In this document: piece by piece, positions 1-8,767 of the stretch | Layout: each line of letters starts with the position of its first letter | Position numbering within the stretch: position 1 is the stretch's first letter | Source: Berkelbacteria bacterium GW2011_GWE1_39_12 | GTDB taxonomy: Bacteria > Patescibacteriota > UBA1384 > UBA12157 | Assembly: GCA_001029735.1 (NCBI GenBank) | Contig: CP011213.1 | Span: 76,087 to 140,086, forward strand | Reading direction: 5' to 3' | DNA: 64,000 nucleotides | The notes under the pieces: generated by a model | Database searches by the model: none | Seen by the model: only the letters and a program-made list of their open reading frames with translations | What the model was told of the DNA's origin: nothing | Program-made: the position numbers and the translations under genes

Positions 1-743
1 TTGATCGCCTCTGCAATCTCTTCCGGAGAAGCAGTATATTCTTCGATTTCTATTTCATTTTTTTGTCTTACAAAATCTAATATTTCTTGGACTTTAGAAT
101 CAAACGGGTTTGAAACGGCAACCTTAATTTTGGAATTTTCATGATTTTCAAAAACAACCATACTATATTTTTTAGAAATCTCAATTGGAAATTTAGTAAT
201 CGTTTCGTAGGAAATTTTTATGTTTTTTAAATCTATAGTTTTTAAGTGTTGTTTTGGCGTTTTTGGCTGATTATCGACATGGTTTACAACCGGCGGCGTA
301 ACCTGAGTATCATAAAGCGGCAGCACCGACTGAATATCTTCTGGCGTGGTAATATAGATATCAACAGTGATCCCCTTCTGATGTTTAAGGTCTGAGATAA
401 TTTGCGGCGGATTACTTTTCAGGTGTGCTGGTAATCCAAAAGCCATTTTTACTCGGCTGTCATCTTTTTCAAAAACAACGACTTTATATTTTTGAGCCAA
501 ATCCTTTGGAATTAATTTTAACGCGTCCGGCTTAATTAAATAATTTTCCAAACGCATGATTGGCAAATCGTATAAAACTGCATAGGCCTTAGCGATATCT
601 TCCGAACTAACCATTTTTTGCTTTCGTAGCTTTTCTTCAATTTTTTCGTTCGTAAAATCAGCCGGAATCTGAGAGGCCTCTGTATCAGTTATTCGGTTCG
701 AGCTTAATAAGATATCTAAAATTGTTTTGTTTTTTTGTTCCAT
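1..743 (-). CDS. Type IV pilus/T2SS assembly ATPase PilB-like, N-terminal part only. It starts at 743 and runs off the window. Two GspE_N-like domains.
   Basis: Reverse translation gives MEQKNKTILDILLSSNRITDTEASQ...VSSEDIAKAYAVLYDLPIMRLENYLIKPDALKLIPKDLAQKYKVVVFE..., which is typical of GspE/PilB N-terminal domains. The ORF is open to position 1. Confidence 0.7.
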   Translation of the reverse strand, partial: MEQKNKTILDILLSSNRITDTEASQIPADFTNEKIEEKLRKQKMVSSEDIAKAYAVLYDLPIMRLENYLIKPDALKLIPKDLAQKYKVVVFEKDDSRVKMAFGLPAHLKSNPPQIISDLKHQKGITVDIYITTPEDIQSVLPLYDTQVTPPVVNHVDNQPKTPKQHLKTIDLKNIKISYETITKFPIEISKKYSMVVFENHENSKIKVAVSNPFDSKVQEILDFVRQKNEIEIEEYTASPEEIAEAI

Positions 744-988
744 ATTTTTCAAAAAAGGTCTTGAAAAATTACGCGACAGGACGAAGCCCTGACTAATTTA
801 AGCGAATATTAAGCCAAAATCGCTCTCCCCTCCTTTGAGGAGAACATTTGTTACTACAATATTAATATATCATTATTTTAAATAAAATGCATGGTCTAAA
901 AAAACACGAATTTTATCGTGCTCTTCTAGTTGGCAGAATGCAACAACTAAATCAGAAACTTTATCTAGAAATCTTGAAAAAAATCTAT

Positions 989-1459
989 CTATTTCTTCAG
1001 ACTCTTTTTACTTTTTATGAATAACACTAAGGAGATTAGAAATAACCACAAAATAAAGGCACCGATTGTAATCCTCTCAGCAATTCCAAAATATGCCGGA
1101 AATTTTGTAGGCCCAATTGCAGTTAGTGGACCTGAAATAAAGATTATTAGCCCCAGGATGACTGAGATAACTTTTAAATTTTTGTAGCCATCCATTTTAC
1201 CAAAACCAAAAGCGGAGAGAAAAACTGCCAACAAAGTGGTTATTGCGGCCATTCCAGCCAAAAAGAAATGTATTAGGCCTTTAAATGTAAGAGTAATATT
1301 TATGGGATCTTGCGGGAAGAAGTACATTAATATTCCCGATAATGCACACAGGAGCAAGAAAGCTGCCGACGATTTAATAAGCTTATTTTTGCCCCAAACA
1401 AAAAAACCGAGACTGAATGCAGCAAGAAATATGTTATACATCCAAAAGAGCGGCTGCAT
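989..1459 (-). CDS. Hypothetical polytopic membrane protein (156 aa).
   Basis: Long ORF, 4-5 hydrophobic helices, no recognisable motif. Confidence 0.5.
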   Translation of the reverse strand: MQPLFWMYNIFLAAFSLGFFVWGKNKLIKSSAAFLLLCALSGILMYFFPQDPINITLTFKGLIHFFLAGMAAITTLLAVFLSAFGFGKMDGYKNLKVISVILGLIIFISGPLTAIGPTKFPAYFGIAERITIGAFILWLFLISLVLFIKSKKSLKK

Positions 1460-1465
1460 TATGAT

Positions 1466-1606
1466 TTAATTTGGTGCAAGTGTCATAGTAAGTTCACTGA
1501 TAGCTTGGGAGATATGACTATAACCTGTCCACAAAAAACCGCCTAATATCACAGCGAAAATATAAATTAATGATGCGATGATTCCAAAATAATAAAACCT
1601 TTTCAT
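1466..1606 (-). CDS. Small hypothetical membrane protein (46 aa).
   Basis: ATG with an AGGAAG RBS 7 nt upstream. One hydrophobic helix. Not in the ORF track because it is under 60 aa. Confidence 0.3.
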   Translation of the reverse strand: MKRFYYFGIIASLIYIFAVILGGFLWTGYSHISQAISELTMTLAPN

Positions 1607-1655
1607 AACATATCTTCCTATAAAATTTTTATATTTTTGCCCTCACGGTTCTCTT

Positions 1656-2444
1656 TCATTTGCCCGATTTGAGATTCCTAAGATCAAGTATGCCTAAGAG
1701 CAAAAATAATAACGATAAAATACTAAACAAAATTAGGAAAAATGGATCAACAGTCAGATTATACTTTGGTTTGATTAGCTCTCCCACACCCAATGGAGCA
1801 AGTTCAACAAAAGCCATTATGTTTAGGGCAGGCAAGATGAAATAACTAAACGGATTTTTTCTCTTCGCCAATATTGCCGTGATTATGAATGCCGGCATGA
1901 CAAAACATAAATCAATAACAAATACGGATATAAAATCGACACGTTTACCATTATTAATTTGCGTCAGCAACATCATTATCCAAAGTGGATAAAACACAAG
2001 TGGCTGAAGAAAAGAAAAAACAACCGATACTTTTCTAAGTCTATCGGACAAAGATAGTTTATTTAGCTTTTCTTTCTCAATATTAATAAGTCCAAAAACT
2101 AAAGAATAAAAAGATATTGTGAAAATAGCCATATAGACAATATATAAAGGAGTGAACACCTGACCAATAACATAGAGACCATATCCGTAGAAAAGATAGG
2201 CAGTAAGCCCTATAGCAATAATTTGTTTTTTGTATTCATCTTGTTCGGTTTTGAATGCCAAGAACAGAAGAATAAGTCCCGCGGGAATAGTCATAAAATC
2301 TTGTGCAAGCGTTCCGGGAATCAAATTGGCTGGCTCGACACTGTTATACATGTATGGCCGGAGCAGACCGACAACAGAAACAGTTACTGATAAAATAGAT
2401 GCCATGCCCCATAGAATTTTGTTTAGTTTTAGATTTTTCATCAT
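1656..2444 (-). CDS. Hypothetical polytopic membrane protein (262 aa), translationally coupled to the upstream hydrolase gene.
   Basis: About 8 predicted TM helices. ATGA-type 4-nt overlap with the 2441..3445 ORF. Confidence 0.55.
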   Translation of the reverse strand: MMKNLKLNKILWGMASILSVTVSVVGLLRPYMYNSVEPANLIPGTLAQDFMTIPAGLILLFLAFKTEQDEYKKQIIAIGLTAYLFYGYGLYVIGQVFTPLYIVYMAIFTISFYSLVFGLINIEKEKLNKLSLSDRLRKVSVVFSFLQPLVFYPLWIMMLLTQINNGKRVDFISVFVIDLCFVMPAFIITAILAKRKNPFSYFILPALNIMAFVELAPLGVGELIKPKYNLTVDPFFLILFSILSLLFLLLGILDLRNLKSGK

Positions 2445-3445
2445 ATTACTAAACCCTTTGTTCGGAAAGCTCCTCTCGAATTGCCGTCTATTTTAATAAT
2501 AAATTTAGAAATTGCATTTTTGACCTCTTCCTCGTGTCCGAGAAGTAGATGACCGCCATCCGGTATGGAAAATAATCCCACGTCAGGAATTATACCGGAA
2601 ATTTTCTTTGCACCTTCATATGGCGGAGCGGGATCGTCAACAGCGTGAACGATCAAAGTCGGCAATTTTATGCGTTCAAATTCAAAGGACTTGGCTTCAA
2701 TCGAGGGAGTTGAGATCTTATTGTCAAAAATAACCCCTTCACTCCTCCTTGATATTGGAAACGAGGCCGCAAAAATATTGTTTTTTACCGTTTCAATTTC
2801 CGACTTGTTCATCTTGGTGATTATGGCCGACGGAACAAACATCTTCATCAGACTTTTTCCAGCGATCTTCGTCGTCAACCAGTAAATAAAATCGGATTTG
2901 AAAACAATATCCGGCGGAGAGGAAACTTTTGTCGTGGTGGCAGAAATCGGCACAACTGATGAGATTAGTATTAATCCCTCGCATTTCTCCGGATAATCTA
3001 CGGCAAAATTCATCGCCGAAGGACCGCCAGCTGAATTTCCGACGATAAATACTTTTTTAATTCCAAGATAGTCCAAAAGTTCACTATAAGCTTCCGCTTG
3101 CATTTTTACTGAAGCGTCTCTGGGCATGGATGACTTTAAATATCCGAATCTTGAAATATAAAGAAAACGATAATTTTGTTCGATATATGCACTCGACAGC
3201 CCTATCCCCTGATCAATGCCCCCAGTAACTCCGTGTGAAATCAAAATAGTCGGCCCCTCGCCTTTTAGTAGATACTCAATGTCGCCGAATTTTGAGGCAA
3301 ATACTTTTGACGGAATAGCTTTTTGCTTGGCAGTAGCATTATTCATTTCCGAACGAAAAACAAAATAGATAATCGAAAAGATCCCTATTAAAATAACTAT
3401 TCCTATCCACATATAAACCTTTCTTTTTTTTAACAAATGCTTCAC
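2441..3445 (-). CDS. Alpha/beta-hydrolase fold protein (membrane-anchored).
   Basis: GNSAG nucleophile-elbow motif (GxSxG). HGVTGG oxyanion region. Asp...GGH acid/base region near the C-terminus. GTG start with an AAAGGAG RBS. N-terminal TM helix. Confidence 0.75.
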   Translation of the reverse strand: MKHLLKKRKVYMWIGIVILIGIFSIIYFVFRSEMNNATAKQKAIPSKVFASKFGDIEYLLKGEGPTILISHGVTGGIDQGIGLSSAYIEQNYRFLYISRFGYLKSSMPRDASVKMQAEAYSELLDYLGIKKVFIVGNSAGGPSAMNFAVDYPEKCEGLILISSVVPISATTTKVSSPPDIVFKSDFIYWLTTKIAGKSLMKMFVPSAIITKMNKSEIETVKNNIFAASFPISRRSEGVIFDNKISTPSIEAKSFEFERIKLPTLIVHAVDDPAPPYEGAKKISGIIPDVGLFSIPDGGHLLLGHEEEVKNAISKFIIKIDGNSRGAFRTKGLVI

Positions 3446-3542
3446 TTTATCTCCTTTTCATTTCATGAAATTATCAATACCAACTTCTGAACATTTAATC
3501 TTGGATGAACCTATATGCAAAATAGATAAGTGTTTCATAAAT

Positions 3543-4229
3543 TTATCGGTCTCCCCTGTTAAAAAGTTTAAACAATAGAAACCCATTAACTATTAAGGTT
3601 AACCAGGTAAAGGTATAAGCTGCAATCTCAAAGTAATATTCTCTATCCAGCCCCATTGTTGCTAAGATAACAACTAATGAAAGTACGGTTAGAACAAAAC
3701 TTCCAATGAATATTCCCTTAACCCATTTTTCTAATTTCGTCCGGGCTGTCATAGCCAATCCACCAAAAAGAAAAGAGATAGTCATGAGCAAAAAGCCTAA
3801 TTCTTCCAATGCGATAAATAGTCCGTGGGGGTTAAACTGTGTCAACAAAGAAACACCATCTGCCTCACCCTTTAAAACACTTGGCTGGATAACCGCTAGT
3901 TGAGTAAAATAAGTTACGAAAAAAATCGCCGCTGACATGGATGCAAAGATAACAGTAATTTGCCCGTATAATTTCTTTTTTTCTTCGGTCCGATTTCCCA
4001 AAATGATCATCAAAATCAAATAAGCAAAAATGACAACCATTGCAGGGATCAGCCAATAATAATCTCTTGGAAATCTTGAAGCAATGTCAAGATAAGGATA
4101 TTGAAAACAACTTGCAGCCCTACAAAAAGGCCCGGATAACGGAGGTGTGTAATAAGCGATAATAAAAGTCAATATTGTCGCTATTGAGGTAAATAATGCA
4201 AATCCTGATCTAAAATTAAGTTTTTTCAT
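3543..4229 (-). CDS. Hypothetical membrane protein (228 aa).
   Basis: 6 hydrophobic helices. No motif recognised. Confidence 0.5.
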   Translation of the reverse strand: MKKLNFRSGFALFTSIATILTFIIAYYTPPLSGPFCRAASCFQYPYLDIASRFPRDYYWLIPAMVVIFAYLILMIILGNRTEEKKKLYGQITVIFASMSAAIFFVTYFTQLAVIQPSVLKGEADGVSLLTQFNPHGLFIALEELGFLLMTISFLFGGLAMTARTKLEKWVKGIFIGSFVLTVLSLVVILATMGLDREYYFEIAAYTFTWLTLIVNGFLLFKLFNRGDR

Positions 4230-4395
4230 TTTTATTTCTCTCCATTACTTTTTAGCCTTAAAGCAAAATATATTAACATAATCGAAAATAGTCCCACTGA
4301 AAGCTCAAGAAGGGTGTAGATAATTGCCGCTACCTCAGGCTGCACTAAATGTAACTGGTCAGCAATAATTTGAGCAGGTATTTTTCCTCATGTTA

Positions 4396-4833
4396 TTAGA
4401 CTTTTGCTTTGATTGCTCTTGCCCATTCTATCGCTTTTTCTAGCTCGTCGTCCAGTAAATGTGGTGACTGCTGTGGCCCTGCAACATAGAAGGGCATTGG
4501 CTCGACAAAAATTTCTGCCCCGGCGCTTCGTAGCGAATTGGCCATTTTCCCCATCGCATCGCCATGAATGAAAAGCTTGACTCTAGTGTCAAAAGACGTC
4601 GCTTTTATTCCGTCCAAATCTTTTTCGTTTAAAGAGTCTAAAAAAGCAGCTGTGTTGTCACTTGGTCGCCAACCACGAATTGGGCTGCCAACAATAAGCA
4701 GTTCTATCCCTTCCAAATCTGACTTTTTGAAGACTCTCGCCTGGACTATCTTCGCATCTATTATTACGGCGATTTTTTCAGCAATAAGCTTGGTATTGCC
4801 GAAGGCAGAATCATAAACGATTAAAGATTTCAT
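4396..4833 (-). CDS. Flavodoxin-like protein.
   Basis: MKSLIVYDSAFGNTKLIAEKIA matches the flavodoxin FMN-binding signature (S/T-x-x-GNT). Size 145 aa. Confidence 0.65.
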   Translation of the reverse strand: MKSLIVYDSAFGNTKLIAEKIAVIIDAKIVQARVFKKSDLEGIELLIVGSPIRGWRPSDNTAAFLDSLNEKDLDGIKATSFDTRVKLFIHGDAMGKMANSLRSAGAEIFVEPMPFYVAGPQQSPHLLDDELEKAIEWARAIKAKV

Positions 4834-5083
4834 TTTGCTCCTAATCGATTAAAGGGATTACATGCAAGAAGAAATTAAACTTCTAAAGCTTTTCCTTTAG
4901 TTTATTACTCTTACAACAACTATTTTACTATCTTTGTAGGTTTTGTAAATAATACGGTCGCGCATTTATAATTTAGTGTTTATTAGACAATTTGCTGCCT
5001 ATTTTGCCCTTGCTAAAATTCTTGGCAATCAGCCACTAATATAATAAAATTAAAGTATAGTTAGTAATAAATTAAGGAGGAAT

Positions 5084-5257
5084 ATGCTATCTCCGAACAT
5101 GCAAAATTACTACAAACCATTTAAGTTTAAGCCCCAGAAAGACCTACTAGTGGTTTTTATTTCATGGATCTCTCCAAGCGCAAATCGACTCCTGCGGTCT
5201 CCTCTCAATCAAACTAGTATTCCTTACAATCGAATGAAAATATTAGTTCGATCCTAG
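5084..5257 (+). CDS. Small hypothetical protein (57 aa).
   Basis: ATG preceded by AAGGAGG at -7. Followed by a clean hairpin + T-run terminator at 5278-5305. Confidence 0.35.
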   Translation: MLSPNMQNYYKPFKFKPQKDLLVVFISWISPSANRLLRSPLNQTSIPYNRMKILVRS

Positions 5258-5277
5258 TTTTGCCCTATACAAAAAAT

Positions 5278-5305
5278 AATCGCTCTATAAGCGACTATTT
5301 TTTTC
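5278..5305. terminator. Rho-independent terminator (TCGCT-ctata-AGCGA + T8).
   Basis: Stem-loop followed by tttttttc on the plus strand. It is also the downstream limit of the minus-strand tRNA-derived array. Confidence 0.6.
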
Positions 5306-5421
5306 TGGCAGGAGCTGCCTTTAGGCACGCAGGAAGCATGCCTAAAGGCGAACCTACGACGCTGGTTTTGCCAAGAAATTTTTCTTGGCACGCAGACCAG
5401 CATTATACCATTTAATTACGC
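5306..5421 (-). pseudogene. tRNA-Trp-derived pseudo-tRNA, copy 1. The anticodon and T-loop are replaced by hairpins, and the 5' acceptor strand is lost.
   Basis: The reverse complement aligns base-for-base with the real tRNA-Trp (D-arm, anticodon stem, T-stem 5' strand, 3' acceptor CAGCTCCTGCCA). The exceptions are a 24-nt insert (TGCGTGCCAAGAAAAATTTCTTGG) in place of the anticodon TC, and a 31-nt hairpin (CCTTTAGGCA...TGCCTAAAGG) in place of the T-loop. Confidence 0.6.
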
Positions 5422-5436
5422 AAAAATAGAGCTTGT

Positions 5437-5517
5437 TGGCAGGAGAGGAAGGAAAGTTGCAAAATTGCGTTGCAATTTCCGAACCCTTAATTCACTTTGT
5501 ACTAAAAATTGAGCTTC
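5437..5517 (-). pseudogene. tRNA-Trp-derived pseudo-tRNA, copy 2 (more degenerate, with a hairpin in the T-loop).
   Basis: Ends ...GGGTTCG[GAAATTGCAACGCAATTTTGCAACTTTCC]TTCCTCTCCTGCCA. The 5' half is recognisably related to the tRNA-Trp D-arm region. Confidence 0.5.
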
Positions 5518-5518
5518 G

Positions 5519-5592
5519 TGGCAGGAGCTGTAGGAATCGAACCTACGACGCTGGTTTTGGAGACCAGCATTATACCATTTAACTAAGCTCCC
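5519..5592 (-). tRNA. tRNA-Trp (anticodon CCA).
   Basis: Cloverleaf GGGAGCT/AGCTCCT acceptor. Anticodon loop CTCCAAA. T-arm GTAGG-TTCGATT-CCTAC. Encoded CCA. Confidence 0.9.
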
Positions 5593-5701
5593 AGCACAAA
5601 ACTCAATTTAAAAGAAACCCAAAAATCCACGAGCCGGCGAATTTATATTTTTGCTTATCTAAAACAAACTTTGCTTAATCTCTTCAAAGATCAAGCTCTA
5701 A

Positions 5702-5881
5702 TTATTTTTTCGCTTTAGAAATTTTCACTTCTTTATGCGGAGTGTGCTTGCGACATTTATTACAAAACTTTGAAAGTTCCAACTTTTCTTTATTTTCAAT
5801 TGGATTTTTCGAAGTTACATAATTTCTTGCTTTGCATTCACTGCATTCAAATTGAAATGCTAATGTTTTTGATTTGGCCAT
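5702..5881 (-). CDS. rpmG: 50S ribosomal protein L33.
   Basis: MAKSKTLAFQFECSECKARNYVTSKNPIENKEKLELSKFCNKCRKHTPHKEVKISKAKK, with the L33 CxxC...CxxC zinc ribbon. It was not in the ORF track because it is 59 aa. Confidence 0.85.
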   Translation of the reverse strand: MAKSKTLAFQFECSECKARNYVTSKNPIENKEKLELSKFCNKCRKHTPHKEVKISKAKK

Positions 5882-5905
5882 TTTATTTCCTTTAATTTAA
5901 TTAAC

Positions 5906-5980
5906 TGGAGCCCGGAATCGGATTTGAACCGACGACCTACTCCTTACCATGGAGTTGCTCTACCACTGAGCTATCCGGGC
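5906..5980 (-). tRNA. tRNA-Thr (anticodon GGT).
   Basis: GCCCGGA acceptor, anticodon loop ATGGTAA, TTCAAAT T-loop, encoded CCA. Confidence 0.9.
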
Positions 5981-6046
5981 ATCAAAATTTTGTTTTTACT
6001 AATGCCAACCAGTAACTATCCGGACTAATCTACACTGATTTGTATT

Positions 6047-6133
6047 TGGTGCCAGGAGTAGGATTCGAACCTACGAAGCCGCAAGGGCAAGAGATTTACA
6101 GTCTCCCCCAGTTGACCACTTTGGTATCCTGGC
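6047..6133 (-). tRNA. tRNA-Tyr (anticodon GTA), class II with a long variable arm.
   Basis: 87 nt. Anticodon loop CTGTAAA. Variable arm GCCCTTGCGGCTTC. T-arm GTAGG-TTCGAAT-CCTAC. Encoded CCA. Confidence 0.9.
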
Positions 6134-6506
6134 TTATTTTATACTCGTCGTATTTCTTATTTTCGATCGATATTTCACTTCTCGCTTTCACGCATTCCCA
6201 TGGTATCTGATATTTTGCTCCCCTTTCCGTATATATAAACAACTCGTCAAAATCATCTTTTTCATACTTTTTCGCATAATGATAAGACTGATTACCGCCC
6301 GTAATTCTCAGCCCGACCAAGCATTGGTCCTTATTTGGATAATAACCAGCGAACTTTACTTGAACTCTTTTTAGACTTCCGCCTTTTTCAACAACCAGAT
6401 CATACGATCTTTTATCACCGATTGGCAAACATACTTCATAATTTTGGGAAATGTAATGGCTAATGGCTTGACCAATTGCTCTGTCACCTTTTTCCTTGGT
6501 ATTCAT
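6096..6506 (-). CDS. PD-(D/E)XK-family nuclease-like protein (YraN/Hjc-like core), probably leaderless. Its 3' end overlaps tRNA-Tyr.
   Basis: GDRAIGQAISHYISQNYEVCLPIGDKRSYDLVVEKGGSLKRVQVKF fits the G..AE..A...L...GY.V..P....D..(E/D)L(I/V)...G...(V/I)EVK pattern of YraN/Hjc nucleases. The ATG at 6506 lies 7 nt after a TATAAT, with TTGCTG 17 bp upstream. The stop TAA lies in the tRNA-Tyr anticodon loop. Confidence 0.5.
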   Translation of the reverse strand: MNTKEKGDRAIGQAISHYISQNYEVCLPIGDKRSYDLVVEKGGSLKRVQVKFAGYYPNKDQCLVGLRITGGNQSYHYAKKYEKDDFDELFIYTERGAKYQIPWECVKARSEISIENKKYDEYKISQDTKVVNWGRL

Positions 6507-6541
6507 GTTTCTATTATACCTGTGTATAGTACAGACAGCAA
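6507..6541 (-). promoter_or_regulatory. Putative sigma70-like promoter driving a leaderless mRNA for the nuclease-like gene.
   Basis: In sense orientation: TTGCTG-N17-TATAAT-agaaac-ATG. Confidence 0.35.
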
Positions 6542-6628
6542 ATCCATCTGACCTACTCCGCCAATCCGGCAATAATTCGATTTTACACTAAAACTCTTCT
6601 AATTTCAACCTCATGTAACAAAACTATT

Positions 6629-8038
6629 TCATTCAACAAAACCGATTAGGTCTCCTTCGTTTTCTACCTTCGGAAATTTAGCAATTGTCTCTGCAATTGG
6701 CCGATAACCTACCAGCGCCCTCGTATCAAATTCTGATTGATTTACCCACTCAGGCACCGGCTTTCCTTGATGTAAATGAAAAAATTCCGCCAGCATTGTT
6801 GTCGCATAGGCTCCTTTTTTTAAATCAAAATGAAAAACACAGCCAGTAGGTATTTCATAGACGTGCCAGATTTTTGGAACAATCTTTGCCGGAACACTTA
6901 ATGGTTTGTTCAATTTCAGAAATTCGAAGCCTGGTTGATTAAATTTAATTTTGCTTAATTGGTCTTCGGGGATAAGTCCTTTATAAGGCTCAATACTTTC
7001 CCGAAAATCCCGAAGTAATGGTAATTCTTGTGGCACATTGCCTTCGGCAATTTTTTTGGATAATAATTTATTAAACCAATAGCTAAAATAACCGTAAACA
7101 CACATCTTCGTTTCATACGGCACCGCTTTTAAAGCCATTGAAAAATCGGAATTGGCTTTTAGACTGCCTAGAAACAACAGCTCATAATATAGAAAATACG
7201 GAAATTGAGAAAAAATTTCATACATTTTTGCCCAATTACCCCAATAGGTAGCTGCTTCATTCCTTAAATTTTGTAGCACAGGCATTTCGTGGCTATTTGT
7301 GCCAACTAAAAGCATTTTGACAGCGTCTTCGTGCTCACCTCTAAGAATTCTTCCGCCAGTTTTATGTGAATTTAGCCTCGCTCCACCAAAACGCTGAAGA
7401 GAATAAAAATTATAAAACCCTTCTTTGTTTAAAATATTTACTTTTTGTTCAAGTTTTGCCAAATCCTGGGGTTGAGTTCTAACCAAAATTGTAAATCTGT
7501 TACCGTATAAATTTCCAACTTTCTCTATCCCCCTTCGCTCGTGTATATTTTTTAAAAAAAGATTTGGGACTGAAATATTTTGCAATTTATCCGGCGTGAG
7601 ACCATCGATAGTAATCTTTTGCGCCGTGATTGCTTCCGAATCCTTCATTCCGGCATAACTAATTTGAAGTTCGCTAATTTTTAAGTTTTCCGCCAAACGC
7701 TCCACTGCTTCTATTGTAGGCATGCCTTGTTTGACTAAATCGGCTTCGCTTTTTGGACTTTGTAGATTCTGTCTACTTGGATGATTTTCTGGTACGTCTT
7801 CAATACTGATAATTTCAAAATCAGTAGAAATTTCTTCAACAATAAAATCAGCCCATTTGTTCTTTATATAGCCAGATCCCATGACATCAGGATGATAATC
7901 GATTCCAATAATGGCTAAATGTTCGGGTATAAATTGAGGAGATTGGCCTGAAAAAACAAGGGTCGGATCGGTTTTGGCCAATTCTTTTAGTTTTTTTTCA
8001 TCTGCCAAACGCAGATAATAATCACGTTTAATTTCCAT
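6629..8038 (-). CDS. truD: tRNA pseudouridine synthase TruD (Pus7 family).
   Basis: FIVEEI plus the YAGMKDSEAITAQ motif (GxKDxxA catalytic Asp region of TruD/Pus7). 469 aa. Confidence 0.8.
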   Translation of the reverse strand: MEIKRDYYLRLADEKKLKELAKTDPTLVFSGQSPQFIPEHLAIIGIDYHPDVMGSGYIKNKWADFIVEEISTDFEIISIEDVPENHPSRQNLQSPKSEADLVKQGMPTIEAVERLAENLKISELQISYAGMKDSEAITAQKITIDGLTPDKLQNISVPNLFLKNIHERRGIEKVGNLYGNRFTILVRTQPQDLAKLEQKVNILNKEGFYNFYSLQRFGGARLNSHKTGGRILRGEHEDAVKMLLVGTNSHEMPVLQNLRNEAATYWGNWAKMYEIFSQFPYFLYYELLFLGSLKANSDFSMALKAVPYETKMCVYGYFSYWFNKLLSKKIAEGNVPQELPLLRDFRESIEPYKGLIPEDQLSKIKFNQPGFEFLKLNKPLSVPAKIVPKIWHVYEIPTGCVFHFDLKKGAYATTMLAEFFHLHQGKPVPEWVNQSEFDTRALVGYRPIAETIAKFPKVENEGDLIGFVE

Positions 8039-8073: not shown

Positions 8074-8111
8074 ATACAAAACAGCCCCACACTTTAGTAC
8101 GTGCGGGGCTG
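8074..8111 (-). terminator. Rho-independent terminator for the GC-rich 209-aa gene.
   Basis: CAGCCCC...GGGGCTG stem followed (on the minus strand) by TTTTGTAT. Confidence 0.55.
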
Positions 8112-8137: not shown

Positions 8138-8767
8138 TTATTGAGCGACTTGTGCCGCTTCTTCTCTTGCCCGACGAGGCGCTTCCTCATCGATAACCCA
8201 GATGCCGTCCTGCTGGACGAACACTAGATCGATCCACCTGGATGGTGGGGCAGGATTGCCGTGATCGGGTTGGAGAATCATGTTGCCTTCAATCGATCCG
8301 TCAGGCTCAGGATTGAGCCAAGTACATCGAACGAAGAACGACTCTGCCCGTTTGATCGCGCGAAGCACCATCTTGAACTCTCCGGGCGTTAGAAGGCCAG
8401 GTTTGTCTTCAGACGAAGTACCCTCGACGAACTCGAGTTTATATCTGTCTTTACCTGACTTGACGAACAGACAGAACCACTCACCGTCCTCGAGCATCTT
8501 AACCAGAGTCTCGCTGGTGATGTACGTGCTGCGCATGATCTGACGCCCACTGTCAACGCCGTTTTCACGGGTGACTGTCGGAAGATTCATTGCAGCGGCT
8601 TCCCGCAGATGCAATTCCTTCATTGCTTCTGCCGGCCTATCCTCGATTCCTTTGAAATCTGACGGCTCGAGGGCAAGGCCTGCCGGGTTGAAAGGGTCGA
8701 AGAACGAAATCTTCTTCAGCGGAGGGTATGGAATTCTAGTGTTACCGATTTCCTGACTCATTTTCAA
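8138..8767 (-). CDS. Hypothetical protein (209 aa) in a GC-rich patch. No recognisable domain.
   Basis: Clean 630-nt ORF at roughly 52% GC, against about 36% in the flanks. Own terminator. Adjacent to tRNA-Thr(TGT). Confidence 0.6.
   Translation of the reverse strand: MKMSQEIGNTRIPYPPLKKISFFDPFNPAGLALEPSDFKGIEDRPAEAMKELHLREAAAMNLPTVTRENGVDSGRQIMRSTYITSETLVKMLEDGEWFCLFVKSGKDRYKLEFVEGTSSEDKPGLLTPGEFKMVLRAIKRAESFFVRCTWLNPEPDGSIEGNMILQPDHGNPAPPSRWIDLVFVQQDGIWVIDEEAPRRAREEAAQVAQ

What the first reader, a model, noticed from the sequence alone, without database searches (positions are those of the whole stretch)
5297..5592. Tandem array of an intact tRNA-Trp and two tRNA-Trp-derived pseudo-copies with hairpins in place of the anticodon and/or T-loop
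Going 3' from the bona fide tRNA-Trp(CCA), on the same strand, there are two further tRNA-Trp-related units. Both retain the CTCCTGCCA 3' end.

Copy 1 (5306-5421) is colinear with the real gene across the D-arm, both strands of the anticodon stem, the 5' T-stem and the 3' acceptor. The two anticodon nucleotides TC are replaced by a 24-nt insert (TGCGTG + hairpin CCAAGAAA/TTTCTTGG). The T-loop plus 3' T-stem are replaced by a 31-nt hairpin (CCTTTAGGCA...TGCCTAAAGG). The 5' acceptor strand is gone. Both inserts share the 9-mer CTGCGTGCC.

Copy 2 (5437-5517) is more diverged and carries a different palindromic insert in the T-loop.

This is not a simple duplication. The functional loops have been specifically replaced by stable stem-loops, while the tRNA scaffold and the integrase-target-like 3' end are preserved.

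Three possible readings:
- stacked att-site scars from repeated integration and excision at tRNA-Trp;
- small palindromic-element insertions into duplicated tRNA copies;
- co-transcribed tRNA-like structured RNAs (decoy or processing elements).

The conserved rpmG-tRNA-Trp-secE-nusG synteny is broken exactly here.
Basis: seen in the sequence. Interest (0 to 1): 0.75.

Follow-up and report, generated by a model that had tools for sequence, protein, structure and literature searches.

The report
Scarred tRNA-Trp copies at integration hotspot
Downstream of the working tRNA-Trp gene of a groundwater Berkelbacteria (CPR) genome sit two dead, hairpin-interrupted tRNA-Trp copies that are most likely scars of repeated insertion of foreign gene cassettes at this tRNA, an ordinary kind of event with an unusual hairpin-rich form.

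Summary
On the minus strand an intact tRNA-Trp(CCA) at 5519-5592 is followed by copy 2 (5437-5517), copy 1 (5306-5421) and a terminator (5271-5303). Copy 1 matches the tRNA at 59 of 61 retained positions, interrupted by a 23-nt hairpin in the anticodon loop and a 32-nt hairpin in the T-loop. Neither copy is called as a tRNA.

- The gap between tRNA-Trp and the T2SSE/MshE-type ATPase gene differs in every relative. Here it holds a 4.4-kb block of genes absent from all of them.
- Copy 2's 3' end matches another lineage's tRNA-Trp allele at 19/19 positions, and differs from the resident one at 4.
- Relatives carry their own tRNA-Trp 3' fragments. One has a large serine recombinase abutting the tRNA.
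- One gene of the block is 90% nucleotide-identical to a gene in a distant CPR lineage, again downstream of tRNA-Trp. In a third genome a homologue is flanked by a perfect 14-nt repeat of a tRNA-Val 3' end.

The origin of the hairpins is unresolved. They are not a dispersed repeat in the 64 kb read. The break in rpmG-tRNA-Trp-secE-nusG order is clade-wide, not caused here. I rate this a new variant of a known kind, of moderate interest.

The parts
5702..5881 (-). rpmG (ribosomal protein L33), the conserved upstream neighbour used as anchor for relatives
   Evidence: Pfam PF00471, E=2.8e-18. 100% identical to an NCBI TPA Candidatus Berkelbacteria protein.
5519..5592 (-). Intact tRNA-Trp(CCA) with encoded CCA
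   Evidence: ARAGORN. Rfam RF00005, 67.3 bits. Identical to the tRNA-Trp of relative L088.
5504..5518 (-). 3' trailer of the real tRNA (CGAAGCTCAATTTTT), repeated after copy 2
   Evidence: the repeat finder D1: 5422-5454 against 5504-5536, 82% over 33 nt. It pairs with the 5' leader (I1).
5437..5517 (-). Only 5437-5488 are tRNA-like: T-stem/T-loop AAGGGTTCG (5480-5488), a 24-nt palindromic insert (5456-5479), then TTTCCTTCCTCTCCTGCCA (5437-5455)
   Evidence: Alignment. The 3' 19 nt TTCCTTCCTCTCCTGCCAA (5436-5454) are 19/19 identical to the tRNA-Trp 3' end of relative L089 and differ from the resident tRNA at 4 positions. Hairpin fold.
5422..5436 (-). Trailer after copy 2 (ACAAGCTCTATTTTT), duplicate of the real tRNA's trailer
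   Evidence: the repeat finder D1.
5306..5421 (-). Copy 1: nearly full-length tRNA-Trp copy (tRNA positions 5-76) with two hairpin inserts
   Evidence: 59/61 retained positions identical. nhmmer E=2.7e-7. Not called by ARAGORN or Rfam.
5371..5393 (-). Anticodon-loop insert GCGTGCCAAGAAAAATTTCTTGG. The 9-10 bp stem GCCAAGAAA/TTTCTTGGC runs on into flanking base 5370
   Evidence: the repeat finder I8. Fold. Unique in the window.
5317..5348 (-). T-loop insert CCTTTAGGCATGCTTCCTGCGTGCCTAAAGGC, with 14-nt arms and a 5-nt loop. Alternative parse: two complementary 12-nt insertions around the retained GcTTCCT
   Evidence: the repeat finder I5. Fold. Unique in the window. Alternative parse.
5271..5303 (.). 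Bidirectional intrinsic terminator hairpin; the central part of a junction module shared with L115
   Evidence: the repeat finder I4. Terminator scan. nhmmer and blastn to L115.
5239..5270 (-). Right arm of the junction module, GTATAGGGCAAAACTAGGATCGAACTAATATT. It contains an antisense T-arm-like motif
   Evidence: blastn of window 5313-5239 against L115 2080-2145 and 2853-2924: 77-78% identity, E 2e-8 and 7e-8. Profile hits only at these three sites.
989..4833 (-). Block specific to this genome: flavodoxin-like 4396-4833, 228-aa membrane protein 3543-4229, alpha/beta hydrolase 2441-3445, 262-aa ORF 1656-2444, and split DUF998 at 1466-1606 plus 989-1459. No recombinase
   Evidence: Pfam. No homologue in any of eight relatives' loci. 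Region 3539-4237 is 90.4% nucleotide-identical to L115 5992-6691.
929..962 (-). Distal degenerate junction AAAGTTTCTGATTTAGTTGTTGCATTCTGCCAAC, ending in a tRNA-3'-end-like CTGCCA and followed by a terminator hairpin (about 894-922)
   Evidence: nhmmer E=8.9e-8 with a profile that includes this site and the four L115 repeats, so the score is partly circular. A CTGCCA just upstream of the T2SSE promoter is also present in L087, L088 and L110.
1..743 (-). 5' part of the T2SSE/MshE-type ATPase gene, the conserved downstream neighbour of tRNA-Trp in relatives
   Evidence: blastp 54-56% to the genes following tRNA-Trp in L087, L088 and L110. Pfam MshEN/T2SSE on L001.

Best explanation
The array is a stack of recombination scars at a tRNA-Trp integration hotspot in a Candidatus Berkelbacteria genome.

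Small cargo cassettes or elements have repeatedly integrated at the extreme 3' end of tRNA-Trp. The shared core is about CTCCTGCCA. Each event leaves a functional tRNA upstream and pushes an older or element-borne tRNA-like 3' segment outward.

Reading away from the tRNA, the order is:
1. copy 2, a T-arm plus acceptor of a foreign or ancestral allele;
2. copy 1, a near-complete tRNA mimic of the resident allele;
3. a terminator-centred junction module;
4. 4.4 kb of cargo genes;
5. a last degenerate junction;
6. the conserved T2SSE gene.

The pseudo-copies are not tRNAs. They are probably co-transcribed as a structured tail that ends at the 5271-5303 terminator.

What is shown:
- the anatomy;
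- the variability of the locus among relatives;
- the foreign allele in copy 2;
- horizontal transfer of one cargo gene;
- junction modules shared with another lineage;
- a recombinase at the same site in one relative.

What is inferred:
- that site-specific recombination made the copies;
- the position of the crossover core;
- that the hairpins are leftovers of element ends or terminator-type palindromes built onto the GCCA end and T-loop, possibly by fold-back (template-switch) copying, rather than selected structures.
For: 1. The site is hypervariable. In L087, L110 and L088 the T2SSE gene follows tRNA-Trp within about 70-650 nt. L111 has different genes there. L089 and L090 have a large serine recombinase (PF07508 + PF13408) on the opposite strand abutting the tRNA. 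The window has a 4.4-kb block found in none of them.
2. Copy 2's 3' end is 19/19 identical to the L089-type tRNA-Trp and differs from the resident tRNA at 4 positions.
3. Relatives have their own scars. L109 repeats a 23-nt tRNA 3' end plus terminator about 235 nt downstream (start to start). L110 has GGTTCG + hairpin + AGCTCCTGCCA of a non-resident allele.
4. The distal junction at 929-962 belongs to a repeat family present four times in the gene array downstream of tRNA-Trp in L115 (E 1e-7 to 1e-9). The module after copy 1 matches two L115 junctions. Neither occurs elsewhere in the 64 kb.
5. The 228-aa cargo gene is 90% nucleotide-identical between the window and L115, whose L33 proteins are only 44% identical. 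In L144 a 71%-identical homologue is the only gene in a 934-bp insert flanked by a perfect 14-nt repeat of the tRNA-Val 3' end. In L142 a homologue follows tRNA-Asn, with a pseudo 3' end after it.
6. Partial tRNAs scattered through tRNA-anchored islands are the known footprint of repeated integration (PMC9897764; bioRxiv 10.1101/2020.12.28.424599).
Against: - No recombinase gene lies in or next to the block in this genome.
- Copies 2 and 1 are separated from each other and from the tRNA by only 15-50 nt, so no cargo remains between them.
- Copy 1 covers almost the whole tRNA, more than a 3'-end att duplication needs. It is nearly identical to the resident gene, as a local duplication would be.
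- The repeat shared by copy 1 and the distal junction is only about 7-8 nt.
- The hairpins are not predicted by the model.
- Similarity of the inserts to junctions in L110 and L142 is only marginal: shuffle p about 0.03-0.06, with a motif chosen post hoc.
- All six contigs of this species are 100% identical here, so no population variation was seen.
Confidence: 0.6

Rival explanations
1. Local tandem duplication of the tRNA-Trp gene with its trailer. The redundant copies then decayed through complex palindromic indels, that is, quasipalindrome or template-switch mutations that copy the opposite strand. No mobile element is involved in making the copies.
For: - Copy 1 is 59/61 identical to the adjacent gene.
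- The tRNA and copy 2 share 15-nt trailers.
- In the alternative parse of copy 1, and in copy 2, the new sequence is the complement of retained T-loop or T-stem bases, as fold-back copying would produce.
- L111 has a T-arm-like segment embedded in a long perfect palindrome.
Against: - Copy 2 matches another lineage's allele at all 4 diagnostic positions.
- The locus is an insertion hotspot in every relative.
- The junction modules are shared with a distant lineage.
- Two complex insertions but almost no point substitutions in copy 1 is an odd decay pattern, unless gene conversion is invoked.
Confidence: 0.2
2. The hairpins are tiny palindromic mobile or insertion elements, of a REP/MITE-like or IS200/IS605-derived type. 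They target the single-stranded loops of tRNA-like hairpins and have hit the dispensable tRNA copies.
For: - Both copy 1 inserts share CTGCGTGCC.
- All three inserts sit in loops, and two sit right after GGTTCG.
- L110 has an insert with CTTCCCGCATGCC and a GCCAAC/GTTGGC stem at the same T-loop position.
- CYGCRTGC occurs in tRNA-end junctions in 4 of its 9 occurrences in 141 kb.
Against: - No further copy of either insert, with up to 3 mismatches, exists in 64 kb. None appears in related loci.
- Only 8 perfect hairpins of 9 bp or more are present in the window.
- The three inserts differ in sequence and length.
- Similarity tests are marginal.
- No matching transposase lies nearby.
Confidence: 0.1
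3. Copy 1, perhaps with copy 2, is a functional co-transcribed tRNA-like RNA. It would keep the D-arm, anticodon stem and 3' CCA end but have its loops locked into hairpins, acting as a decoy, a processing or stability element, or an elaborate terminator.
For: - No terminator lies between the tRNA and 5303, so co-transcription is likely.
- The fold is very stable: z=-8.4 for copy 1 and -8.0 for the whole tail.
- The retained tRNA segments are almost unchanged.
Against: - No acceptor stem.
- No hit to any of 4227 Rfam families.
- Absent from L088, which has the identical tRNA, and from L086, L087 and L089.
- No covariation data are possible because all copies are identical.
- Similar fragments in relatives differ in extent and sequence.
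Confidence: 0.08

Closest known systems
attL/attR partial-tRNA repeats of integrative elements and tRNA-anchored genomic islands, for example Prochlorococcus islands remodelled by tycheposons (bioRxiv 10.1101/2020.12.28.424599) and the tRNA gene fragments reviewed in PMC9897764
   Same: - An intact tRNA is followed, on the same strand, by partial copies of its 3' part.
- Lineage-specific cargo genes lie between the copies and the conserved flank.
- Successive integrations push older material outward.
- A recombinase is present at the same site in some relatives only.
- A cargo gene is shared across distant lineages.
   Different: - No integrase or replication module lies in this island.
- Two of the scars have no cargo between them.
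- One scar is an almost complete tRNA copy.
- The scars carry stable hairpins exactly in the anticodon loop and T-loop.
- The host is a CPR bacterium.
- The only recombinase seen at the site is a large serine recombinase, not the tycheposon tyrosine recombinase lineage.
Integron cassette arrays, including attC clusters that lack an integrase (CALINs)
   Same: - In L115, single genes of about 0.7 kb in one orientation are separated by ~100-nt imperfectly palindromic junction repeats.
- The cassettes lack their own recombinase.
- The same gene appears at different sites in different genomes.
   Different: - No IntI is present.
- The junctions lack complementary R''/R' boxes (RYYYAAC...GTTRRRY).
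- They end in a tRNA 3'-end-like CCTGCCA and contain an intrinsic terminator.
- The array is anchored on a tRNA gene.
Quasipalindrome (template-switch) mutations and palindromic repeat insertions such as REP elements or Rickettsia palindromic elements in RNA genes
   Same: - Short inserts create near-perfect hairpins inside a structured RNA gene.
- The new arm is the complement of neighbouring retained sequence.
   Different: - No repeat family was detected in the sequence available.
- The inserts are much shorter than RPEs.
- They sit in non-functional gene copies.
Archaeal multi-intron or split tRNA genes
   Same: Insertions lie in the anticodon loop and T-loop of a tRNA-like sequence that lacks its 5' acceptor strand.
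   Different: - The genome is bacterial: bacterial LSU rRNA and L33.
- No partner 5' half is seen.
- An intact tRNA-Trp lies next door.

Membership tests
Functional tRNA gene (copies 1 and 2) | Cloverleaf with a paired acceptor stem, a 7-nt anticodon loop and a T-loop, detectable by tRNA models | tested here: not met
   ARAGORN default, with introns, and at relaxed threshold calls only 5519-5592. Rfam RF00005 gives no hit at E<=10. The 5' acceptor GGGA is replaced by TTTT and both loops are interrupted.
att-type partial tRNA repeats of a tRNA-anchored island | Direct-orientation copy of the tRNA 3' part downstream of the intact gene | tested here: met
   CTCCTGCCA occurs 3 times on one strand against 0.24 expected. 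Copy 1 nhmmer E=2.7e-7. A degenerate fourth end lies at 929-962.
att-type partial tRNA repeats of a tRNA-anchored island | Lineage-specific DNA between the repeats, with occupancy that varies among relatives | tested here: met
   The 989-4833 block is absent from eight related loci. Each relative has different content at the site. One gene is 90% nucleotide-identical to a distant lineage. No cargo lies between the tRNA, copy 2 and copy 1.
att-type partial tRNA repeats of a tRNA-anchored island | Site-specific recombinase in the element or at the site | tested here: not met
   The five block ORFs scanned (the DUF998 fragment at 1466-1606 was not) carry flavodoxin, alpha/beta hydrolase or DUF998 domains, or have no Pfam hit. 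A large serine recombinase abuts tRNA-Trp only in relatives L089 and L090.
Tycheposons (Prochlorococcus-type) | [quoted passage not shown] | tested here: not met
   No recombinase or replication genes are present in the block.
Integron cassette array / attC sites | Complementary R'' (RYYYAAC) and R' (GTTRRRY) boxes 50-150 nt apart at cassette junctions, and an IntI integrase | tested here: not met
   A regex scan of window 1-6000 and of L115 found no such pair at any junction. No integrase is present.
Dispersed palindromic repeat (REP/MITE-like) | Many copies at unrelated sites in the genome | tested here: inconclusive
   No other copy exists in the 64-kb window or the fetched loci. The remaining ~850 kb of the genome could not be read.
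Intron-containing or split tRNA (archaeal type) | Removal of the inserts restores a complete cloverleaf; bulge-helix-bulge motifs at the junctions | tested here: not met
   Under the replacement parse the 3' T-stem is lost, and the 5' acceptor strand is absent under any parse. ARAGORN -i calls nothing. The bulge-helix-bulge geometry was judged by eye only.

The most novel reading that the evidence does not exclude
CPR bacteria may have an integron-like way of trading single genes. In this reading, small cassettes without a recombinase insert at the 3' ends of different tRNA genes, mobilised in trans. Insertion was seen or inferred here at tRNA-Trp, tRNA-Val and tRNA-Asn, and a large serine recombinase is seen at tRNA-Trp in L089. 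Each cassette would leave a structured, tRNA-3'-end-mimicking junction module with a terminator hairpin. The hairpin-bearing pseudo-tRNAs of this window would then be such junction modules, possibly recombination substrates that act as folded DNA, rather than passive decay products.
Probability: 0.2. Interest if true: 0.75.

Novelty: new variant of a known kind. Interest (0 to 1): 0.45.

Why it matters
CPR bacteria have tiny genomes, and their routes of gene exchange are poorly known.

This locus shows a tRNA-anchored hotspot where single accessory genes are exchanged between CPR lineages as different as 44% L33 identity. The footprints are unusual, because the tRNA loops are replaced by hairpins.

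If the junction modules prove to be recombination sites, they would define a cassette system for this radiation.

If not, the practical lesson concerns annotation. Such arrays are non-functional tRNA fragments, and they mark genomic islands.

Tried and rejected
- **Metagenome-contig scan with ACCAGCGTCGTAGGTTCG.** All 15 hits were chance matches inside unrelated genes. The lineage is not in that collection.
- **Viral-contig scans.** I searched for the tRNA segment, both tRNA 3'-end alleles, the junction motifs, the 228-aa protein and the L089 recombinase. This gave one unrelated viral contig with a tRNA-Trp of its own, and otherwise chance matches or none.
- **BLASTN of 5235-5520 against phages and plasmids.** Nothing relevant.
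- **L115 337-aa gene next to tRNA-Trp as a candidate recombinase.** Rejected; there is no recombinase signal in Pfam or the PDB.
- **A remnant of the L089 recombinase in the window.** The only match is to the antisense of the tRNA itself.
- **Junction modules as integron attC sites.** No R boxes.
- **Junction modules as a known RNA family.** None found.
- **A possible tRNA on the + strand at about 5190-5265** (T-arm-like ATTAGTTCGATCCTAGT). It is not supported by ARAGORN or Rfam. I read it instead as the right arm of the junction module.
- **An 11-mer of tRNA-Thr(TGT) repeated at 8085.** It is part of an ordinary terminator.
- **Similarity of the inserts to L110, L142 and L144 junctions.** Shuffle tests are only marginal: p 0.03, 0.03, 0.06, 0.15 and 0.28. 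I treat the shared CYGCRTGC motif as a lead, not a result.
Full report
**Observation**

All features are on the minus strand. ARAGORN and Rfam find one tRNA-Trp(CCA) at 5519-5592. Reading 3' from it, the order is:
- a 15-nt trailer;
- copy 2, ending at 5437;
- a near-identical 15-nt trailer;
- copy 1 (5421-5306);
- a strong bidirectional terminator hairpin (5271-5303).

Copy 1 is colinear with the tRNA from position 5 to the CCA end.
- 5421-5394 matches at 26/28.
- 5393-5371 is a 23-nt insert, GCGTGCCAAGAAAAATTTCTTGG, at the anticodon.
- 5370-5349 matches at 22/22.
- 5348-5317 is a 32-nt insert, CCTTTAGGCATGCTTCCTGCGTGCCTAAAGGC, in place of ATTCCTAC.
- 5316-5306 matches at 11/11.

A profile of eight Berkelbacteria tRNA-Trp genes finds copy 1 independently at E=2.7e-7.

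Copy 2 is tRNA-like only in its last ~50 nt: AAGGGTTCG, a 24-nt palindromic insert, then TTTCCTTCCTCTCCTGCCA.

The motifs are not chance.
- CTCCTGCCA occurs 3 times against 0.24 expected.
- The shared 9-mer occurs 2 times against 0.17 expected.
- Copy 1 folds at z=-8.4.
- Only 8 perfect hairpins of 9 bp or more exist in 64 kb.

Neither copy is a tRNA by ARAGORN, even with introns and relaxed thresholds. Neither hits any of 4227 Rfam families at E<=10.

A second, equally good parse of the T-loop region keeps GcTTCCT (tRNA GATTCCT) as the hairpin loop, flanked by two mutually complementary 12-nt insertions.

**Organism and relatives**

The L33 protein next to the tRNA is 100% identical to a Candidatus Berkelbacteria (CPR) protein on a 915-kb contig. 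Five metagenome contigs, two of which name a groundwater source (a groundwater metagenome and ANAN16), carry this L33 and a region that is 100% identical to the window. No covariation or population signal is therefore available.

L33 homologues of 76-88% identity led to eight related loci, each with L33 followed by tRNA-Trp. The conserved backbone is: tRNA-Thr, a small gene, tRNA-Tyr, tRNA-Thr, L33, tRNA-Trp, T2SSE/MshE ATPase.

The absence of secE-nusG after tRNA-Trp is thus a property of the clade, not of this site.

**The site is an insertion hotspot**

The gap between tRNA-Trp and the T2SSE gene has different content in each locus.
- L087: about 70 nt.
- L110: about 55 nt.
- L088: about 600 nt, with an unrelated 150-aa ORF.
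- L111: about 1.9 kb, with a nucleotidyltransferase.
- The window: 4.5 kb.

The window's block (989-4833) holds a flavodoxin-like gene, a 228-aa membrane protein, an alpha/beta hydrolase, a 262-aa ORF and a split DUF998. It has no counterpart in any relative and no recombinase.

In L089 and L090 a large serine recombinase (PF07508 + PF13408) lies on the opposite strand. Its reading frame runs into the antisense of the tRNA-Trp 3' end.

**The copies are not simple local duplicates**

The last 19 nt of copy 2 with its first trailing base (TTCCTTCCTCTCCTGCCAA) are identical to the L089 tRNA-Trp 3' end. They differ from the resident tRNA at 4 positions.

Relatives have their own fragments.
- L109 repeats 23 nt of the tRNA 3' end plus the terminator about 235 nt downstream (start to start), preceded by a GC hairpin.
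- L110 has GGTTCG + CTTCCCGCATGCCAACTTGCCGTTGGC + AGCTCCTGCCA. That is a hairpin insert at the same T-loop position as in copy 1, followed by an acceptor end of the window type rather than the L110 type.
- L111 has a T-arm-like segment inside a long terminator palindrome.
- A CTGCCA directly upstream of the T2SSE promoter is present in L087, L088, L110 and, 40 nt further away, in the window. This is as expected if it is the displaced ancestral tRNA end.

**Junction modules and cassette transfer**

The 228-aa gene (3543-4229) has a 93%-identical homologue in L115. L115 is a 259-kb contig of a different CPR lineage: its L33 is 44% identical and its tRNA-Trp 81%.

Nucleotide identity is 90.4% over exactly the gene (window 4237-3539 against L115 5992-6691). 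In L115 the gene again lies downstream of L33 and tRNA-Trp, in a one-strand gene array.

That array contains a ~100-nt junction repeat after several genes. Its parts are:
- a left arm, AAAGTTTCTGRYTTYAG..GTTRCAYCCTGCCA;
- a terminator hairpin;
- in two of the four copies, a right arm, GYATAGGGCAAA..GGWTMGAAC.

The window has the left arm once, at 929-962, at the far end of the block (E=8.9e-8). It has the terminator plus right arm once, directly after copy 1 (5307-5239; blastn 77-78%, E about 1e-8). Neither occurs anywhere else in the 64 kb or in the other loci.

Homologues of the same gene sit after other tRNAs.
- In L144 the gene is the only one in a 934-bp insert flanked by a perfect 14-nt direct repeat, GTATCGCCCACCAT. 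This is the 3' end of tRNA-Val(GAC).
- In L142 it follows tRNA-Asn. It is followed by a pseudo 3' end, GGTTCAAGACCTGCATGCTGAGCCA, whose GAGCCA starts a 19-bp hairpin.

The modules are not integron attC sites. They match no Rfam family.

**The hairpins**

They are not a dispersed repeat in the sequence I could read.

Two features hint at their origin.

First, in copy 2 and in the alternative parse of copy 1, the new sequence is the complement of retained T-loop or T-stem bases. This is the pattern of fold-back (template-switch) copying.

Second, the 9-mer shared by both copy 1 inserts is part of a motif, CYGCRTGC, followed by a hairpin that starts in GCCA. That motif also occurs in the L110 and L142 junctions. 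Four of its nine occurrences in 141 kb are in such junctions.

The second hint is weak. The motif was defined post hoc, and direct similarity tests are marginal (p about 0.03-0.06). I therefore regard the origin of the hairpins as unresolved.

**Interpretation**

The best-supported account (confidence about 0.6) is a stack of scars from repeated integration of small cargo cassettes at the 3' end of tRNA-Trp. This is the known footprint of tRNA-anchored islands (PMC9897764; tycheposon islands, bioRxiv 10.1101/2020.12.28.424599).

The rivals are:
- local duplication with palindromic decay (0.2);
- tiny palindromic insertion elements (0.1);
- a functional tRNA-like RNA (0.08).

Three things are unusual:
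- one scar is a nearly complete tRNA copy;
- the hairpins sit exactly in the anticodon loop and T-loop;
- terminator-centred junction modules and a single-gene cassette are shared across distant CPR lineages with no recombinase in cis.

The most novel reading left open is an integron-like, tRNA-end-targeting cassette system in CPR bacteria (probability about 0.2).

**Limits**

- The other ~850 kb of this genome could not be examined.
- No expression or population data are available.

Noticed in passing
L115 2055-2150, 2826-2925, 3527-3625, 7391-7490: Four ~100-nt junction repeats follow genes in a one-strand array downstream of L33 and tRNA-Trp in a distant CPR lineage. Each has a tRNA-3'-end-like left arm ending in CCTGCCA and a terminator hairpin; two also have a right arm with an antisense T-arm-like motif. 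DUF218 and NUDIX each form a ~0.7-kb single-gene unit between repeats, much like an integron cassette array but without attC boxes.
   Followed up: partly
L144 715-728 and 1649-1662: A perfect 14-nt direct repeat, GTATCGCCCACCAT (the 3' end of tRNA-Val(GAC)), flanks a 934-bp insert. The insert contains only a 71%-identical homologue of the window's 228-aa gene and no recombinase.
   Followed up: partly
L089 4184-5086 (minus strand), also L090 2473-3054: The reading frame of a large serine recombinase runs without a stop into the antisense of the tRNA-Trp 3' end, so its last ~20-25 residues are encoded by antisense tRNA. This suggests the attachment site lies inside the 3' end of the recombinase gene. 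The contig ends inside the gene.
   Followed up: partly
window 8138-8767: A 209-aa ORF with no Pfam hit has about 54% G+C in a ~36% G+C genome. It lies directly downstream of tRNA-Thr(TGT) and has no homologue at the same position in relatives. It is probably another foreign gene at a tRNA 3' end.
   Followed up: partly
window 6096-8038: TruD (469 aa) and a PD-(D/E)XK endonuclease (PDDEXK_5) lie between the small gene after tRNA-Thr(TGT) and tRNA-Tyr. They are absent from that position in all related loci. L087 instead has a GIY-YIG gene before L33. The whole tRNA cluster is a patchwork of insertions.
   Followed up: no
L086 4251-4324, L089 4173-4246, L110 234-307: The tRNA-Trp genes of several Berkelbacteria have T-loops TCCGATT or TCCGAAT, with C where the near-universal U55 is expected. 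The window, L088 and L109 have the canonical TTCGATT.
   Followed up: no
window 5506-5529 and 5586-5609: The 5' leader and 3' trailer of the real tRNA-Trp are complementary (24-nt arms, 79%). This extends the acceptor stem of the precursor.
   Followed up: no
window 989-1606: The DUF998 gene of the block is split into a 46-aa and a 156-aa ORF by an in-frame stop. The same split is seen in L002 and L003. It is a likely pseudogene, consistent with decaying cargo.
   Followed up: no
L109 2178-2214 (minus strand): The spacer between the two tRNA-Trp 3'-end repeats contains an antisense T-arm-like fragment, GCGCGAATCGAACCTAAATGA. It occupies the same relative position as the antisense T-arm-like motif after copy 1 in the window.
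   Followed up: no
L116 3641-4228, L117 3603-4238: In candidate division CPR2 genomes, a 78%-identical homologue of the 228-aa gene lies about 2 kb from an IS200/IS605-type Y1 transposase. No tRNA lies within the 6 kb fetched on each side in L116 (L117 not scanned). The gene therefore also moves in contexts unrelated to tRNAs.
   Followed up: no
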